Source: Desulfomonilia bacterium (GTDB taxonomy: Bacteria > Desulfobacterota > Desulfomonilia > UBA1062). From it: a DNA stretch of 64,000 nt. Below, piece by piece: positions 19,108-26,200 of the stretch. A program made the translations under genes and the position numbers. Where the stretch lies: positions 320,001-384,000 of the forward strand of contig CAXXDQ010000007.1 of assembly GCA_963664325.2 (NCBI GenBank), in the 5' to 3' direction. The notes beneath the pieces were generated by a model. That model saw only the letters and a list, made by a program, of their open reading frames with translations, had not been told where the DNA came from and made no database searches. How positions within the stretch are numbered: position 1 is the stretch's first letter; each line of letters begins with the position of its first letter.

Positions 19108-19449
19108 ATGACAAGCTTTCTCATCAAATGGGCCGTATCTGCCATATCGCTTGCAGTTGCGGCCAAATTAATCAAGGGCATCAACATCGACAGCGGATGG
19201 ACGCTTCTCATAGCCGCGCTGGTAATAGGACTCCTTAATGCCACGTTGAGATGGGTCCTGATTATCCTGACGCTGCCGATAAACATTCTTACGCTCGGGC
19301 TTTTCACCTTTGTCATCAACGCCGTCATGATCATACTGGCTTCCAAACTGGTCAACGGATTCCAGGTCGATGACTTCTGGACCGCTTTTCTGGCAGCAAT
19401 ACTGATGTCGATCGTGGGCTTTTTCCTGAATATCCTTTTTGATTCCTGA
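19108..19449 (+). CDS. YvlD/DUF360 'phage holin family' 4-TM membrane protein
   Basis: GLLNA...LTLPINILTLGLF..VINA...GF.V..FW.A pattern. Confidence 0.9.
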   Translation: MTSFLIKWAVSAISLAVAAKLIKGINIDSGWTLLIAALVIGLLNATLRWVLIILTLPINILTLGLFTFVINAVMIILASKLVNGFQVDDFWTAFLAAILMSIVGFFLNILFDS

Positions 19450-23228: not shown

Positions 23229-23429
23229 AAAAACCATATTCTTTTAAGCCTGTTGTATAGATAACCTGCCATCACCTATATTCTTGCTGGGTTTGCTTTC
23301 AGTGCATATCTGCGGCAGCGATATATGATTTATAAACTGTCTGAAAATGAAGATATCATCAAGTAATTTTGATAACTATTGCAGGATCCATGTAGTATCC
23401 TGAAGTATTCATTGTTGCAGGCGACATGG

Positions 23430-23479
23430 TTAGTCATATTATCATGAACGTCCCCAAGTCACACCACCAAGTCACACCA
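23430..23479. repeat. dispersed repeat copy with 13-bp tandem duplication
   Basis: 23430-23459 is 25/30 identical to 63894-63923; CCAAGTCACACCA occurs twice at 23454-23479. Confidence 0.75.
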
Positions 23480-23562
23480 CATGCCAGACGCTGCTCCAGT
23501 GATGCTTTTGGTGGCATTCTGTTTTCTTTATGCCAGTCTTTGTTTAGTTTGGAATTCTTCAT
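23434..23562 (-). pseudogene. small gene apparently truncated by the repeat
   Basis: MKNSKLNKDWHKENRMPPKASLEQRLA, then runs into the repeat; TAATG coupling to the upstream gene. Confidence 0.5.
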
Positions 23563-23894
23563 TATGGGCCTTTTGGGGAATCATAAGCCTTGATTGCTGC
23601 CGGCAGAGAGCGAGTGACAATGTTGCCTGCAGCGGGGAGACCTAACAAAACCGCACTGATGACTTCTTCTCGTGATGCTCCTACCTCTCTTGCCTGCATG
23701 ACATGGAAGGGAATACCACTGTCGAGACCTAATACTGCAAGGACGGCAATGTACCCAAGGTATTCTGTCTTCTTGTCCAGTGCACAGGCTTCATCGAGGT
23801 TCTTCGCTGCAGTCATCCATGCCTTAGCGTGTTTAGGTGCTTCCATCATGAATAACTGAAAGGCATTGCTCATTAGTTCTTGATTGTCGGACAA
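23562..23894 (-). CDS. carboxymuconolactone decarboxylase/AhpD-like protein (integron cassette gene)
   Basis: ALDKKT...IAVLA...GIPFHV..A...GASREEV pattern; TTG start after AAGGAG, immediately following the attC GTT. Confidence 0.85.
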   Translation of the reverse strand: MSDNQELMSNAFQLFMMEAPKHAKAWMTAAKNLDEACALDKKTEYLGYIAVLAVLGLDSGIPFHVMQAREVGASREEVISAVLLGLPAAGNIVTRSLPAAIKAYDSPKGP

Positions 23895-23912
23895 ATTTCT
23901 CTCCTTTCTGGT

Positions 23913-23976
23913 CCCCAACGCCCCGGTTCAGCGGCGGGCCGCGCAGCGGACCGTCCGCTGCAACCGGTTGTTAGGT
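23913..23976 (-). mobile_element. integron attC site (64 bp)
   Basis: Minus strand: ACCTAAC-AACCG-GTTGCAGCGG...CCGCTGAAC-CGGGGC-GTTGGGG. R'', L'', L' and R' boxes with internal dyad, 6 bp after the TIR gene stop. Confidence 0.92.
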
Positions 23977-23982
23977 CGCCGG

Positions 23983-25395
23983 TCATTTGTCCCACGACAC
24001 CCATGATTGAGCACCATCGCCCTGATCAAAGTTCGGCATCTTGAAAAACTCCCGCAGCTCCGGCATGTCACGGAAGATCTGCGGGAGGTCGTTGCCTTCG
24101 TCAGCCGCAAGTACCTGGTTAACGAAGAGCTGGAGACGGTTCTCAGGTTTATTGGAGAGCCCGCACAGTCCTCCAATGGCTTTGGCCAAATCCTCGATGG
24201 CGTGCTCGAGACTGCGGCGACCACTCCCCGCCTTGTCGGCTTCTTCCCCGTACGTCCGACGGACATGCAGAAGCGCCCTTAGCGAGTGGATGCTCTTCTC
24301 GACAACATGCCTGTTCTCCTCCGGTGAGCCTGCAGGGAAAGGAGCTTCAAGGTGCCGGCCAAGAGCGCGTGAGAATTCAGCGGCAGCCTGCGAGACGTTA
24401 CCGGACCGAAGATCAATGTACTTGACGTCGCGTAGCACCGGCGGGAGATCAACGTCATCGAGCAGAATCGGAATTACTATCGGCCCCTTGCCGTGCGCGG
24501 AGAGTCTCTCTGCCGTGACGATGCTCAACTCCTGCAGCACCCACCGACTTCGGACCGACGCTTCCGACATGAAGAACGCTAGACACTCGGCCGAGCGAAG
24601 GCCATGTGAGATTGTCTCCAGCAGGCTATCACCTGGCGAGATGCGTTCCTCGTCCATCCACACCTCGACACCGTGGGATCGGATCGCGTCGGCAAACGGG
24701 CGGATCCGTCCTTTGTCGGTATGTGTATGACTGAAAAACACGAGCGGATGTCGTTTGCCTTCCGACCTCGCAAGCCGATCAACAGCCCGCCGTATCTCCG
24801 CAGATAGCAAGGCTTCGTCGATCCCCTGCTTCAACGCCGAGGTGACAATGTCATCGAGGTGATCGAGCACTGGTCGAGGCTCGGGCAGGTGCTGCTCGGC
24901 CTGCAGCCTGGCGGCCTCCTGAAGGTCCTGGACCGTGCGGGAGAGGTCGGCCACGACGCCAACAGCAAGGTCGTCAGGTGCCTCAAACGGGGCACACGTA
25001 TGGCGTTCTCGAAGAGTGACCTTCAGCCGCTCCAAGGCACGAATACCATCGGGATCGCGCTCGACGTGCCGCGGCAAGACCGGGACGTCATCTCCTCGAA
25101 TGTAGATCAAGCAGGGTTTCCGGAGGCGATGGCCCTCTTGGTACTCAGACTCGGTGTAGGAGATCTTCTGGCCCGGTACAAAGGTGCCGTATCGGTGCCC
25201 GACCACGACGACCAGGATGTCGCTCTTGCGCACTTCCTCGAGGCACGTCTCCAAAGGCCTGCCCTCTCGCGCACCGAAGAACTCCATAGCGTCGTGCTGC
25301 AACTGGAGGCGCCTTACGGCAGCAAGCACCGCCTCGCGTTCGGGCCCCAGGTCTGCCTGAGTGCTACAAAGGAACACTGTCAGCGTTTGTGCCAT
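23983..25395 (-). CDS. DUF4062 + TIR domain protein (integron cassette)
   Basis: N-terminal VFLCST..DL..ER...AMEFFGA...CLEEVRKSD...GHRYG...SYTESEY; central VFFSH...VWMDE..I.PGDS...S.WVLQEL...IPILLD; visibly more GC-rich than the flanks. Confidence 0.88.
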   Translation of the reverse strand: MAQTLTVFLCSTQADLGPEREAVLAAVRRLQLQHDAMEFFGAREGRPLETCLEEVRKSDILVVVVGHRYGTFVPGQKISYTESEYQEGHRLRKPCLIYIRGDDVPVLPRHVERDPDGIRALERLKVTLRERHTCAPFEAPDDLAVGVVADLSRTVQDLQEAARLQAEQHLPEPRPVLDHLDDIVTSALKQGIDEALLSAEIRRAVDRLARSEGKRHPLVFFSHTHTDKGRIRPFADAIRSHGVEVWMDEERISPGDSLLETISHGLRSAECLAFFMSEASVRSRWVLQELSIVTAERLSAHGKGPIVIPILLDDVDLPPVLRDVKYIDLRSGNVSQAAAEFSRALGRHLEAPFPAGSPEENRHVVEKSIHSLRALLHVRRTYGEEADKAGSGRRSLEHAIEDLAKAIGGLCGLSNKPENRLQLFVNQVLAADEGNDLPQIFRDMPELREFFKMPNFDQGDGAQSWVSWDK

Positions 25396-25408
25396 GTCTC
25401 TTCCTTCG

Positions 25409-25497
25409 ACTTAACGGCGAGTTGAGCGGTTTGGAATCGGGCTGGCGAGCTTGCTCGCCAAGTCCGAGGACGAATGTGCTCGAACGATTTGTTCGGG
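25409..25497 (-). mobile_element. integron attC site (89 bp)
   Basis: Minus strand: CCCGAAC-AAATC-GTTCGAGC...TGGCGAGC-AA-GCTCGCCA...GCTCAAC-TCGCC-GTTAAGT, 13 bp before the TIR gene start. Confidence 0.85.
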
Positions 25498-25580
25498 CGT
25501 GCGAATCAGCACGCATCGGAACAAATCGGGCGAGTGCGTCCGTGCAACTCACCGTTCCGGCGCGTGCAGCGCGCCGGAAC
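25491..25580 (-). repeat. two gene-less GTT...AAC hairpins separated by a degenerate attC-like segment
   Basis: Perfect 11-bp inverted repeat GTTCCGGCGCG-N5-CGCGCCGGAAC at 25554-25580; imperfect hairpin at 25491-25522. Confidence 0.6.
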
Positions 25581-25801
25581 AATTAATATACCCTGTGGTA
25601 CTTTTTAGTATTTTTTTGAAATTTTATACTATATGACGAAGAAATGGAAAGATAAATATGTCATAAAATCAATATAAACAAACTTTCACCAGCGAGTAAT
25701 TTTTGTTAATAACAAAAGGTGCTTGGCCTTGATCCATGACAAATTGATTATTTGTACCATTTCATGGCATGACACGGGATTTTTCTCTGGTTCGTTAAAA
25801 T

Positions 25802-26140
25802 TCATAACAGAATACCTCTATTAAAGAACAAGTCTTTAATTTGATTTTCTTCCATGTATTTGAACATTTTCTTTGCTGTTTTTGTCCCAATAGGGAAACC
25901 AAGCATTAATATGTAGAGATAGAACTTCAAGAGATAGAAACCCCAAATTTTTCTTATGATAATACCAACTCCAGTTAAAAGATGCCAAGCAACCATGCAT
26001 ATAAAAAAAACTTTGAATGGTGACACAAAGTTAGGACTATTGTGCATCAGGAAATAAATAAATACACCAGCCGCACCAATAAAAAGCAAAGAGATCCCGA
26101 AAGTTTGAATTGGTTTAAACTTTGTTAGATCGAAGATCAT
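25802..26140 (-). CDS. AT-rich hypothetical membrane protein
   Basis: 112 aa with about 3 hydrophobic segments; AAAGGA RBS. Confidence 0.65.
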   Translation of the reverse strand: MIFDLTKFKPIQTFGISLLFIGAAGVFIYFLMHNSPNFVSPFKVFFICMVAWHLLTGVGIIIRKIWGFYLLKFYLYILMLGFPIGTKTAKKMFKYMEENQIKDLFFNRGILL

Positions 26141-26169
26141 ACGAAATCCTTTTACTGGTGTTGCCTTTT

Positions 26170-26200
26170 CTCACCACTCACAACTGACCACTCACCACTA
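26170..26200. repeat. heptamer tandem repeat
   Basis: CTCACCA CTCACAA CTGACCA CTCACCA CTA abutting the SDR stop codon. Confidence 0.75.

What the first reader, a model, noticed from the sequence alone, without database searches (positions are those of the whole stretch)
23983..25395. Candidate single-gene anti-phage system: DUF4062-TIR-unknown domain fusion on an integron cassette
Seen: a 470-aa protein with an N-terminal DUF4062-like domain (about aa 6-155; SYTESEY, E84), a helical linker, a TIR domain (about aa 218-345; WVLQEL, E289) and about 120 C-terminal residues I cannot assign. The gene is visibly more GC-rich than the host and has an attC on each side. Established: bacterial TIR domains use this Glu to cleave NAD+ or make signals in Thoeris, CBASS, Pycsar and short-Argonaute systems. 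DUF4062 is a TIR/deoxyribosyltransferase-like fold often found on NLR-like proteins, and integron cassettes are enriched in defence genes. Inference: two nucleotide-processing domains in tandem, with no STAND ATPase or partner gene, suggest a self-contained sensor/signal/effector. The C-terminal domain could be the phage sensor or oligomeriser.
Basis: partly seen in the sequence, partly recalled or inferred. Interest (0 to 1): 0.85.

Follow-up and report, generated by a model that had tools for sequence, protein, structure and literature searches.

The report
Two-NADase defence gene on lone integron cassette

Summary
The ORF is real: window 23983-25395 (-), 470 aa. It has DUF4062 (aa 7-86, E 4e-22), a helical stalk, TIR_2 (aa 219-340, E 2e-27) and a helical tail of about 120 aa with no fold match. 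E84 aligns with the mutated catalytic Glu of the solved KpSwz E97A chain. E289 aligns with the Glu of the AbTir and Cat1 motif. They are kept in 79/80 and 77/80 relatives.

The gene lies on an integron-type cassette. A 64-nt attC follows the stop codon (23913-23976), and DNA homology to two related cassettes runs exactly from a GTTAAGT core (25409-25415) to that attC. There is no full attC upstream, and no integron integrase in the genome.

Eight of 27 homologue loci have an adjacent attC-like site. Their neighbours include bSEFIR, AbiJ and restriction-modification genes.

Three 2026 preprints show that DUF4062 ("NIR") is an anti-phage NADase (Swarozyc, Evangelion, Vulcan/Vesta). The "unknown system" claim is therefore weakened. 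The NIR-TIR tandem itself is not described in the main texts I could search.

Verdict: a new variant of a known kind, most likely a single-gene abortive-infection NADase. No function was tested.

The parts
23983..25395 (-). Intact gene for the 470-aa NIR(DUF4062)-stalk-TIR-tail protein (stop codon 23983-23985)
   Evidence: ORF. Pfam. Full-length homologues of 49-88% identity.
24985..25395 (-). NIR/DUF4062 NADase-like domain, aa 1-137. Catalytic-type E84 is at codon 25144-25146, and the F8 and S79-Y-T motifs are present.
   Evidence: PF13271 E 4e-22. The family profile matches KpSwz chain 10wc_A at E 6.5e-17. E84 aligns with the Ala of the E97A chain. E84 is kept in 79/80 relatives. The model shows a beta/alpha fold at pLDDT about 90.
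24751..24984 (-). Helical stalk/linker, aa 138-215
   Evidence: Helices 140-167, 176-189 and 194-211. The profile match to KpSwz runs on to query residue 183.
24349..24750 (-). TIR_2 domain, aa 216-349. Catalytic-type E289 is at codon 24529-24531.
   Evidence: PF13676 E 2e-27. Foldseek top hit is AbTir 7uxu, E 1.9e-6, TM(target) 0.79. E289 aligns with the Glu of the AbTir and Cat1 motif. E289 is kept in 77/80 relatives.
23986..24348 (-). C-terminal tail, aa 350-470: a small helical bundle (helices about 362-452) specific to this lineage
   Evidence: Models. No Foldseek match at E<=0.001. Best VIA Z is 8.1, below the helical noise level stated by the tool. It was found only in 10 DUF4062-TIR proteins. 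It forms one clade on the core tree.
23913..23976 (-). attC recombination site of the cassette (R'' ACCTAAC ... R' GTTGGGG)
   Evidence: It aligns with the attC sites of five homologue loci; 7 of 21 pairs are kept through changes on both sides.
25409..25415 (-). 5' cassette boundary: R' core GTTAAGT, 13 nt before the ATG, with the RBS (about 25398-25407) in between
   Evidence: Sequence. DNA homology to L054 and L055 starts at 25415 and 25413. L054 begins with GTTAGGT at the same distance from its ATG.
25416..25577 (-). GC-rich non-coding leader with three strong hairpins. It is foreign to the host and is not shared with the related cassettes. Its origin is unknown.
   Evidence: Folds with z -4 to -7. 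No homology in L054, L055 or L060. Host-type repeats start at 25577/25578.
23273..26150 (.). Variable island between two conserved host genes (a 363-aa protein and an SDR). It holds a CMD-family gene (23562-23918), the cassette, and a 112-aa membrane ORF (25802-26140).
   Evidence: The site is empty (238 bp) in G003 and holds other content in G001 (3.8 kb) and G002 (5.3 kb). Pfam for the island genes.

Best explanation
The segment from 25414 to 23919 is a 1.5-kb integron-type gene cassette, acquired horizontally and now fixed in a small variable hotspot of a genome that has no integron integrase. Its single gene encodes a self-contained anti-phage protein of the DUF4062/NIR class.

Proposed mechanism:
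1. The protein rests in an auto-inhibited oligomer. This is inferred by analogy with KpSwz and with TIR NADases.
2. A phage cue is sensed by the regions outside the NIR core, namely the TIR and stalk surface and, in this lineage, the helical tail. This step is inferred.
3. Both catalytic centres then hydrolyse NAD+. These are NIR E84 and TIR E289. The residues are shown to be conserved; activity is inferred.
4. The infected cell arrests and phage spread is aborted.

Shown here: the domains, the catalytic residues, the cassette anatomy, the horizontal origin, and the defence-rich company that relatives keep. Inferred: the defence phenotype, the NADase activity of either domain, the trigger, and oligomerisation.
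For: - The N-terminal domain belongs to a family whose members are NADases needed for phage defence by experiment: KpSwz E97, PsAvs2 E108, Vulcan E98, VstA E103 and Eva01 E87 (texts read).
- The family profile hits KpSwz at E 6.5e-17 over residues 3-183. E84 aligns with the mutated catalytic position. The F8, S-Y-T and E-Y motifs named for Evangelion are present.
- The TIR domain is nearest to AbTir, BtpA, PdTIR, Cat1 and SPARTA TIR.
- E84 is kept in 79/80 and E289 in 77/80 relatives.
- The cassette is established.
- Eight of 27 homologue loci have an attC-like site within 150 bp of the ORF. At most 0.9 is expected from the site density of the same loci.
- Neighbours of homologues include bSEFIR directly beside L025 and L055, an AbiJ ORF between two attC-like sites in L023, and a type II restriction-modification pair between two attC-like sites in L032. 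Across 110 neighbour ORFs, 53 PADLOC families were hit at E<=1e-5.
- Distribution is patchy. A two-domain match was found in 0 of 400 other sampled genomes of the phylum and in 0 of 3 same-genus genomes. GC is 0.60 against about 0.48 in the host.
- Integron cassettes are documented stores of defence genes: Kieffer 2025, Darracq 2025 and Getz 2025, as cited in passages read.
Against: - No experiment exists for any NIR-TIR protein.
- PADLOC models hit only the TIR part, residues 196-345, so no known system covers the architecture.
- In this window the neighbours are housekeeping genes (LigA, Hfq, APH, acyl-CoA dehydrogenase, ETF). No convincing defence gene lies within about 10 kb. The only PADLOC hits there are a BRCT-region match of LigA and one at E 2e-4.
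- Expression is not shown. Cassettes are normally promoterless and no integron promoter is present. Promoter-like sites upstream are no more frequent than in shuffles: 5 found against 2.6 +/- 2.0.
- The closest NIR modules also occur fused to PAS, GGDEF, HD and SpoIIE domains. That mix of partners could point to signalling roles other than immunity.
- Why two NADases would be needed is unexplained.
Confidence: 0.6

Rival explanations
1. Division of labour, 'Thoeris in one chain'. The AbTir-like TIR makes a cyclic ADP-ribose isomer or another NAD-derived signal on sensing phage. That product, in cis or between protomers, switches on the NIR executioner, or the reverse.
For: - The TIR is closest to AbTir-type TIRs. 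From recall, these make cADPR isomers.
- Both active sites are conserved.
- Osinski et al. note that DUF4062 proteins with extra enzymatic domains may work by mechanisms more complex than plain NADase activity (discussion read).
Against: - No recognisable signal-binding module (SLOG, Macro, SAVED, STING) is present.
- ThsB_TIR scores 18.3 bits, below its cut-off of 21.2.
- 31 of 80 relatives are just NIR plus TIR with no tail, so any receptor would have to lie in the NIR or stalk.
Confidence: 0.13
2. NIR is the only executioner. The TIR takes the place of the 'AUX' region of Swarozyc and Evangelion, as a sensing or oligomerising scaffold, and its NADase chemistry is not needed for defence.
For: - In KpSwz and Eva01 the region after the DUF4062 core is the sensor and is essential.
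- Here the TIR occupies that position.
- The nearest NIR modules carry many alternative partners, such as pentapeptide repeats, TPR, PAS and NB-ARC.
- From recall, TIR domains are classic homotypic assembly modules.
Against: - E289 is kept in 77/80 relatives, and W285 in 69/80. A purely structural role would not require this.
Confidence: 0.12
3. The gene is not an immune gene. It could be an NAD/nucleotide-turnover enzyme used in stress or growth control, or a toxic 'addiction' cargo that stabilises cassette arrays.
For: - Close NIR modules are fused to signal-transduction domains: GGDEF, PAS (5 of 60), HD and SpoIIE.
- Some family tails are AsnC-type ligand-binding (PF01037) or HTH_8 (PF02954) domains.
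- No defence neighbours occur in this window.
Against: - Every DUF4062 protein tested so far in bacteria acts in phage defence, except Eva02, which gave no protection.
- Relatives are flanked by bSEFIR, AbiJ and restriction-modification genes.
- No cognate antitoxin-like partner is conserved.
Confidence: 0.1
4. The gene is a silent passenger. The cassette is stranded without an integrase or promoter, so the gene is not expressed and does nothing in this host.
For: - No IntI is present.
- There is no canonical upstream attC or attI.
- Promoter-like sites are not enriched.
Against: - The frame is intact and full length relative to its 470-aa homologues.
- It has its own RBS.
- An AT-rich host repeat with sigma-70-like hexamers lies about 200-350 bp upstream on the same strand.
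Confidence: 0.05

Closest known systems
Swarozyc (KpSwz, Klebsiella pneumoniae; Osinski et al. 2026 preprint, 10.64898/2026.05.01.722283; PDB 10wc)
   Same: Both are single-gene systems. Both have an N-terminal DUF4062 NADase core followed by helical stalks. The family profile aligns residues 3-183 to chain residues 4-181 at E 6.5e-17. The catalytic Glu is in the same column.
   Different: The match stops at chain residue 181 of 326, so the portal-sensing AUX domain of KpSwz has no counterpart. Here a canonical TIR enzyme and a helical tail follow instead. The single-sequence match is weak (E 7e-4, residues 6-88). The trigger is unknown here.
Evangelion (Eva01 and related lineages; Ibarra-Chavez et al. 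2026 preprint, 10.64898/2026.06.25.731849)
   Same: The logic is shared: 'conserved DUF4062 core plus diversified auxiliary region' in one gene carried on mobile elements. The conserved F, S-Y-T and E-Y motifs are shared.
   Different: Staphylococcal plasmid DUF4062 proteins, which I take to be the Eva01 lineage, match only residues 7-136 at 27-29% identity. None of the 223 matching plasmid records (of 72,556 in the collection) covers >=80% of this protein. Evangelion AUX regions 'lack recognizable conserved domains', whereas here the region is a TIR. The carrier here is an integron cassette and not a plasmid.
NIR-containing systems Vulcan (NIR-HEAT), Vesta (NIR protein plus phosphatase) and PsAvs2 (NIR-STAND-TPR); Le Mouellic et al. 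2026 preprint, 10.64898/2026.09.04.749371
   Same: All carry an N-terminal NIR effector whose Glu is needed for NAD+ depletion and defence. The partner modules are swappable.
   Different: None of the architectures named in the main text pairs NIR with a TIR. This protein has no HEAT repeats, STAND ATPase or phosphatase partner.
AbTir/BtpA/PdTIR-type bacterial TIR_2 domains, and the TIR effectors of SPARTA, TIR-SAVED and Cat1
   Same: The fold and motif are shared: 7uxu at E 1.9e-6 and TM 0.79; 7uxr profile E 2.5e-18. E289 is in the catalytic column.
   Different: Those TIRs are coupled to coiled coils, APAZ/Ago, SAVED or CARF-like sensors. None is coupled to a second NADase fold.
Thoeris ThsB
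   Same: Both have a TIR domain. PADLOC ThsB models hit at E down to 4e-8.
   Different: ThsB_TIR is below its Pfam cut-off. No ThsA-type effector gene was seen within about 10 kb.
Defence cassettes of integrons, and attC sites without an integrase (from recall, IntegronFinder's 'CALIN' class)
   Same: A promoterless single ORF is followed by an attC. Its 5' edge lies at a G|TT core. Neighbouring cassettes in relatives carry AbiJ and restriction-modification genes.
   Different: Here there is one lone attC, no array, and no IntI, attI or Pc in the genome.

Membership tests
DUF4062 / NIR (TIR-like NADase) family | Match to PF13271 above the curated cut-off | tested here: met
   78.7 bits against a cut-off of 24.7, residues 7-86.
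DUF4062 / NIR (TIR-like NADase) family | Catalytic glutamate in the E-Y motif, aligned with a Glu validated by experiment | tested here: met
   E84-Y85 aligns with the Ala-Phe of the KpSwz E97A chain. It is kept in 79/80 relatives.
DUF4062 / NIR (TIR-like NADase) family | NAD+ hydrolysis to ADPR and nicotinamide | not testable with these tools
   This needs an enzyme assay.
Swarozyc | C-terminal AUX domain like that of KpSwz (the portal sensor) | tested here: not met
   The profile alignment to 10wc_A ends at chain residue 181 of 326. Residues 216-349 here are a TIR.
Evangelion (Eva01 lineage) | Placement in the Eva01 clade of DUF4062 cores, with an AUX region lacking known domains | tested here: inconclusive
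   Staphylococcal plasmid DUF4062 proteins match residues 7-136 only, at 27-29% identity.
TIR NADase (TIR_2) | Match to PF13676 above the cut-off, a TIR fold, and the catalytic Glu | tested here: met
   96.5 bits against a cut-off of 28. AbTir 7uxu at TM 0.79. E289 lies in the Glu column of AbTir and Cat1. It is kept in 77/80 relatives.
Thoeris | A ThsB-type TIR together with a ThsA effector gene (SIR2/SLOG or Macro-TM) | tested here: not met
   ThsB_TIR scores 18.3 bits, below its cut-off of 21.2. The Pfam and PADLOC scans of the island ORFs and the roughly 10-kb flanks listed no SIR2, SLOG or Macro family.
Integron gene cassette | attC 3' of the ORF on the same strand, built as R''-L''...L'-R' in an imperfect palindrome | tested here: met
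   The site is at 23913-23976. It aligns with five other attC sites next to homologues, with 7 of 21 pairs compensatory. It was found with my own pattern-and-fold scanner, not with IntegronFinder's model.
Integron gene cassette | A mobile unit bounded at G|TTRRRY cores, with the same unit found in other contexts | tested here: met
   Homology to L054 and L055 runs from 25415/25413 to 23914/23924 and stops there.
Integron (complete) | intI, attI and Pc next to the array | tested here: not met
   TIGR02249 best hit is 84.3 bits against a cut-off of 265. Only Xer-like recombinases were found, in a genome 95.6% complete.

The most novel reading that the evidence does not exclude
The two NAD-cleaving folds are not redundant. 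On activation the AbTir-like TIR turns NAD+ into a cyclic ADPR isomer or another product, while the NIR makes ADPR. This could work in either of two ways. One product could gate the other active site, giving a complete sensor-signal-effector circuit in one 1.5-kb cassette. Alternatively, the mixed products could starve phage NAD-reconstitution pathways that need ADPR plus nicotinamide. On this reading the swap-in tails set the trigger: six unrelated tail types were seen, and the core tree needs at least 14 gains or losses of tail state (eight classes, counting tail-less and short tails).
Probability: 0.15. Interest if true: 0.8.

Novelty: new variant of a known kind. Interest (0 to 1): 0.5.

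Why it matters
DUF4062/NIR was recognised as an immune NADase only in 2026. The tested systems pair it with sensors: an AUX region, HEAT repeats or STAND-TPR.

This family instead pairs it, across many phyla, with a second catalytically intact NADase fold. It then adds interchangeable tails. That combination gives a compact natural system for three questions:
- Why would an immune protein carry two NAD-consuming sites?
- How do TIR and TIR-like folds cooperate?
- How are triggers swapped?

The finding also adds NIR-TIR genes to the list of integron-cassette cargo. It further shows that lone cassettes can seed defence genes into genomes that have no integron of their own. The only other attC-like site in this genome follows a NACHT gene and an Mrr-like nuclease gene.

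Tried and rejected
- Upstream attC. I folded 25396-25600 on both strands and scanned it with my attC pattern-and-fold script. I found strong hairpins but none with the R''...R' arrangement. One stem, GACTT-GGCGAG...CTCGCC-(GTT)-AAGTC, is attC-like only loosely, and I do not call it an attC.
- Rfam at gathering thresholds found only the tRNA-Val gene in the window.
- Homodimer prediction with full length x 2 and alignment A2: no answer (score 0.08, mark 0.42). This is neither for nor against oligomerisation.
- ESM Atlas look-up of the tail: no usable hit.
- Fold searches of the tail: only generic helical bundles. The best Z was 8.1, where the tool itself gives about 13 as the noise level for helical models.
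- Sequencing runs: no RNA holder listed, so nothing can be said on expression. I did not lay reads.
- Viral contigs: one remote hit to the NIR domain only, so I dropped a phage-borne or counter-defence reading.
- Plasmids: none of the 223 matching records (of 72,556 in the collection) covers >=80% of the protein.
- I considered a TcpB/BtpA-like secreted virulence TIR and rejected it. No host-associated context was seen, and the fusion partner is an immune NADase.
- Supplementary files and figures could not be seen. Osinski et al. Fig. S1D/E ('auxiliary enzymatic domains') and Le Mouellic et al. Fig. 2 may already draw a DUF4062-TIR architecture. My statement that it is undescribed rests on two searches and on the term searches and 93 of main texts only.
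- DefenseFinder and IntegronFinder could not be run.
Full report
**Observation.** The minus strand of window 23983-25395 holds an intact 470-aa ORF. An RBS lies 6-7 nt before its ATG.
- Pfam places DUF4062 on residues 7-86 (E 4e-22) and TIR_2 on residues 219-340 (E 2e-27). Both are far above their curated cut-offs.
- GC is 0.59-0.62 across 24000-25599. It is 0.30-0.34 just upstream and 0.39-0.49 just downstream.
- An AlphaFold2 model built on 80 relatives has mean pLDDT 84 and pTM 0.46. The low pTM means the relative orientation of the domains is not reliable.
- The model shows four parts: a beta/alpha domain (aa 5-137); three long helices (140-167, 176-189, 194-211); a second beta/alpha domain (218-349); and a helical bundle (362-452).

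**The two catalytic centres.** A profile of the family hits the solved Swarozyc protein KpSwz (10wc_A) at E 6.5e-17. The match covers query residues 3-183, that is the core plus the stalk.
- In the pairwise alignment, E84 falls on the Ala of the deposited E97A mutant. E84 is therefore the homologue of a glutamate shown by experiment to be required for NADase activity and defence (text read).
- The F8, S79-Y-T and E84-Y85 motifs match those named for Evangelion.
- The TIR part is closest to AbTir, a TIR domain protein (7uxr), PdTIR, BtpA/TcpB, Cat1 and the SPARTA TIR.
- E289 sits in the Glu column of the AbTir and Cat1 motif. That this Glu is the AbTir catalytic residue is my recollection, not a tool result.
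- I aligned 80 relatives, picked by hand from the roughly 270 proteins listed to span the identity range. E84 is kept in 79 of them; the one exception is a fragment lacking the N-terminus. E289 is kept in 77.
- Neither domain looks like a decayed scaffold.

**The tail.** Residues about 350-470 match no Pfam, NCBIfam or PADLOC model.
- A separate model has pLDDT 75. It gives no Foldseek match at E<=0.001 and only generic helical-bundle matches by VIA-align. The best Z is 8.1, below the tool's stated noise level for helical models.
- A word-based search with the tail alone found 10 proteins, all DUF4062-TIR.
- Among the 80 relatives, 31 have no tail (<=25 aa) and 44 have tails longer than 60 aa. 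Those tails fall into six mutually unrelated BLAST clusters. Two of them carry PF01037 (AsnC-type ligand-binding) or PF02954 (HTH_8) by the precomputed annotation.
- I built a tree of the NIR-TIR core with 79 rows, leaving the fragment P0136 out. This tail type forms one clade (SH-aLRT 90), nested among tail-less proteins. The eight tail-state classes (six tail types plus tail-less and short tails) together need at least 14 changes.
- The tail is a lineage-specific add-on to a self-sufficient two-domain core.

**The family.** The two-domain core is widespread. All 120 proteins listed carry both Pfam domains.
- HMMER over 1.84 billion cluster representatives gives 146 hits at E<=1e-30. Some of these share only the NIR module.
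- Among the 150 listed there, every protein matched across both domains is 470 aa or shorter. No long STAND-type form was seen.
- The nearest NIR modules (45-62% identity over residues 1-165) are joined to very different partners. In 60 such proteins, PAS and TIR_2 each occur in 5, pentapeptide repeats in 4, TPR in 3, HD and NB-ARC in 2 each, and GGDEF in at least one (member 1, P0141).

**The cassette.** My scanner looks for the RYYYAAC...GTTRRRY pattern, folds the segment with DNA parameters, and requires the ends to pair.
- In the 64-kb window it gives one strong site, 23913-23976 (-): 64 nt, dG -23.1, 78% paired. It starts 7 nt after the stop codon.
- With stricter thresholds the whole 4.3-Mb genome holds only two such sites.
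- DNA homology to two related genes in other contexts (L054 at 79% and L055 at 78% protein identity) begins at window 25415/25413. That is inside a GTTAAGT core 13 nt before the ATG. The homology ends at 23914/23924, at the end of the attC.
- L054 starts with GTTAGGT at the same spacing and has a canonical attC whose stem differs from ours by paired changes.
- An alignment of six attC sites next to family members keeps the classical structure. Seven of 21 pairs are maintained through changes on both sides.
- The mobile unit is therefore 25414-23919, about 1.5 kb: one ORF plus its attC.
- Upstream there is only the R' core. The GC-rich 160 bp beyond it (25416-25577) folds into three hairpins but is not attC-like. 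It is not shared with the related cassettes.
- Host-type repeats begin at 25577/25578.
- The genome has no integron integrase. The best TIGR02249 score is 84.3 bits against a cut-off of 265, on Xer-like genes, in a genome 95.6% complete.
- 'On an integron cassette' is right. 'An attC on each side' is half right, and the cassette is not in an integron.

**The locus.** The cassette lies in a 2.9-kb island (about 23273-26150) between a conserved 363-aa gene and an SDR gene.
- The island is absent from one same-genus genome (238 bp at the site). Two others carry 3.8 kb and 5.3 kb of different DNA there.
- The protein was not found in the three same-genus genomes.
- No two-domain match was found in 400 other sampled genomes of the phylum. 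The 21 that matched did so in one domain only.
- The surrounding genes are housekeeping: LigA, Hfq, APH-family kinase, acyl-CoA dehydrogenase and ETF. No convincing PADLOC hit occurs there.

**Company kept by relatives.** Eight of 27 two-domain loci have an attC-like site within 150 bp of the ORF (21 loci from species-representative genomes, 6 from metagenomes).
- At most 0.9 is expected from the site density in the same loci. Several contigs end too close to the gene to be judged.
- L023 has three attC-like sites in a row.
- I took up to three ORFs on each side in 22 loci, leaving out five short contigs. The ORFs are my own longest-ORF calls of >=80 aa, 110 in all.
- PADLOC hit 53 families at E<=1e-5 among them: bSEFIR in 3, mad3 and AriA in 2 each, and AbiJ, Old, GajA, a type II restriction-modification pair and a Pycsar-type TIR effector in 1 each. 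Pfam shows SEFIR, TIR_2, GmrSD_N and Abi_C. No control set was run.
- Looked at singly: bSEFIR lies directly beside the gene in L025 and in L055. An AbiJ ORF lies between two attC-like sites in L023. A restriction-modification pair lies between two attC-like sites in L032.
- No neighbour family recurs widely. Only two cross-locus pairs of similar neighbours were found. The gene therefore works alone.

**What is known.** Three 2026 preprints establish DUF4062 as a TIR-like NADase used in phage defence.
- Swarozyc is portal-activated and requires E97 (Results part 1 and the Discussion read).
- Evangelion is a DUF4062 core plus a diversified AUX region on plasmids (section 11 and passages read).
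- NIR occurs in Avs2, Vulcan and Vesta (part 1 of the Results, which covers the Avs2 and 'immune module' sections, plus section 7 and passages).
- None of their main texts mentions a DUF4062-TIR fusion or integrons. Two literature searches found no other paper that does.
- Osinski et al. state that some DUF4062 proteins carry additional enzymatic domains, shown in a supplementary figure I could not see.
- That integron cassettes store defence systems is documented: Kieffer 2025, Darracq 2025 and Getz 2025, seen as citations and summaries.

**Reading.** The most likely function is a single-gene abortive-infection system in which both domains consume NAD+ once a phage cue releases auto-inhibition. 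I put this at 0.6.
- Rivals: a signal-then-effector division of labour between TIR and NIR (0.13); TIR as a non-catalytic sensor or scaffold (0.12); a non-immune NAD-linked role (0.10); a silent passenger (0.05).
- The protein fails the membership test for Swarozyc, because the AUX domain is not matched. It also fails for Thoeris, which needs a ThsA effector and a ThsB-type TIR above cut-off. It meets the tests for the NIR and TIR_2 domain families and for an integron cassette.
- It is best filed as a new, untested variant of the NIR-based single-gene defence class.

Noticed in passing
G000:C3:695807-695930 (locus L075:2308-2431), outside the window: This is the only other attC-like site in the genome (124 nt, dG -40 to -44). 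It lies directly 3' of a 214-aa Mrr_cat nuclease-domain ORF, which is preceded by a 407-aa NACHT ATPase ORF. It looks like a second stranded defence-type cassette. Its R''/L'' motifs resemble those of the window's attC.
   Followed up: partly
window 23273-26150, and L019, L020, L021: The interval between the 363-aa gene and the SDR gene is a hotspot that differs in all four genomes of the genus. It is empty in G003. In G002 it holds a DUF6994 protein and others. In G001 it holds an AAA_14/DUF4143 ATPase.
   Followed up: partly
window 23261-23460; 25578-25712; 25706-25778; 26163-26200: These are short host-specific repeats at the island's edges. The 200-bp element has a 97% copy at C4:122845-123044 and an 88% copy at C4:170532-170723. 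The roughly 70-bp element recurs at least 5 times in G000 and many times in G001-G003. Their nature (MITE or REP-like) was not determined.
   Followed up: no
window 23562-23918 (-): A CMD-family (AhpD-like) gene starts right at the end of the attC, on the same strand and with its own RBS, as the next cassette of an array would. No attC was found after it.
   Followed up: no
window 25416-25577: This 160-bp GC-rich leader has three very stable hairpins (z down to -7), including a perfect 11-bp stem. It is foreign to the host, is not part of the shared cassette, and has no Rfam match.
   Followed up: partly
window 19108-19449 (+): A 113-aa ORF matches Phage_holin_4_2 (E 2e-35) and sits alone between a 1395-aa FG-GAP/subtilase-like protein gene and ligA.
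   Followed up: no
L025:8415-9920 and L055:7637-9139: bSEFIR-type proteins of about 500 aa lie directly beside NIR-TIR genes in two unrelated contigs (30% identical to each other). This may be a recurrent pairing of NADase defence genes.
   Followed up: partly
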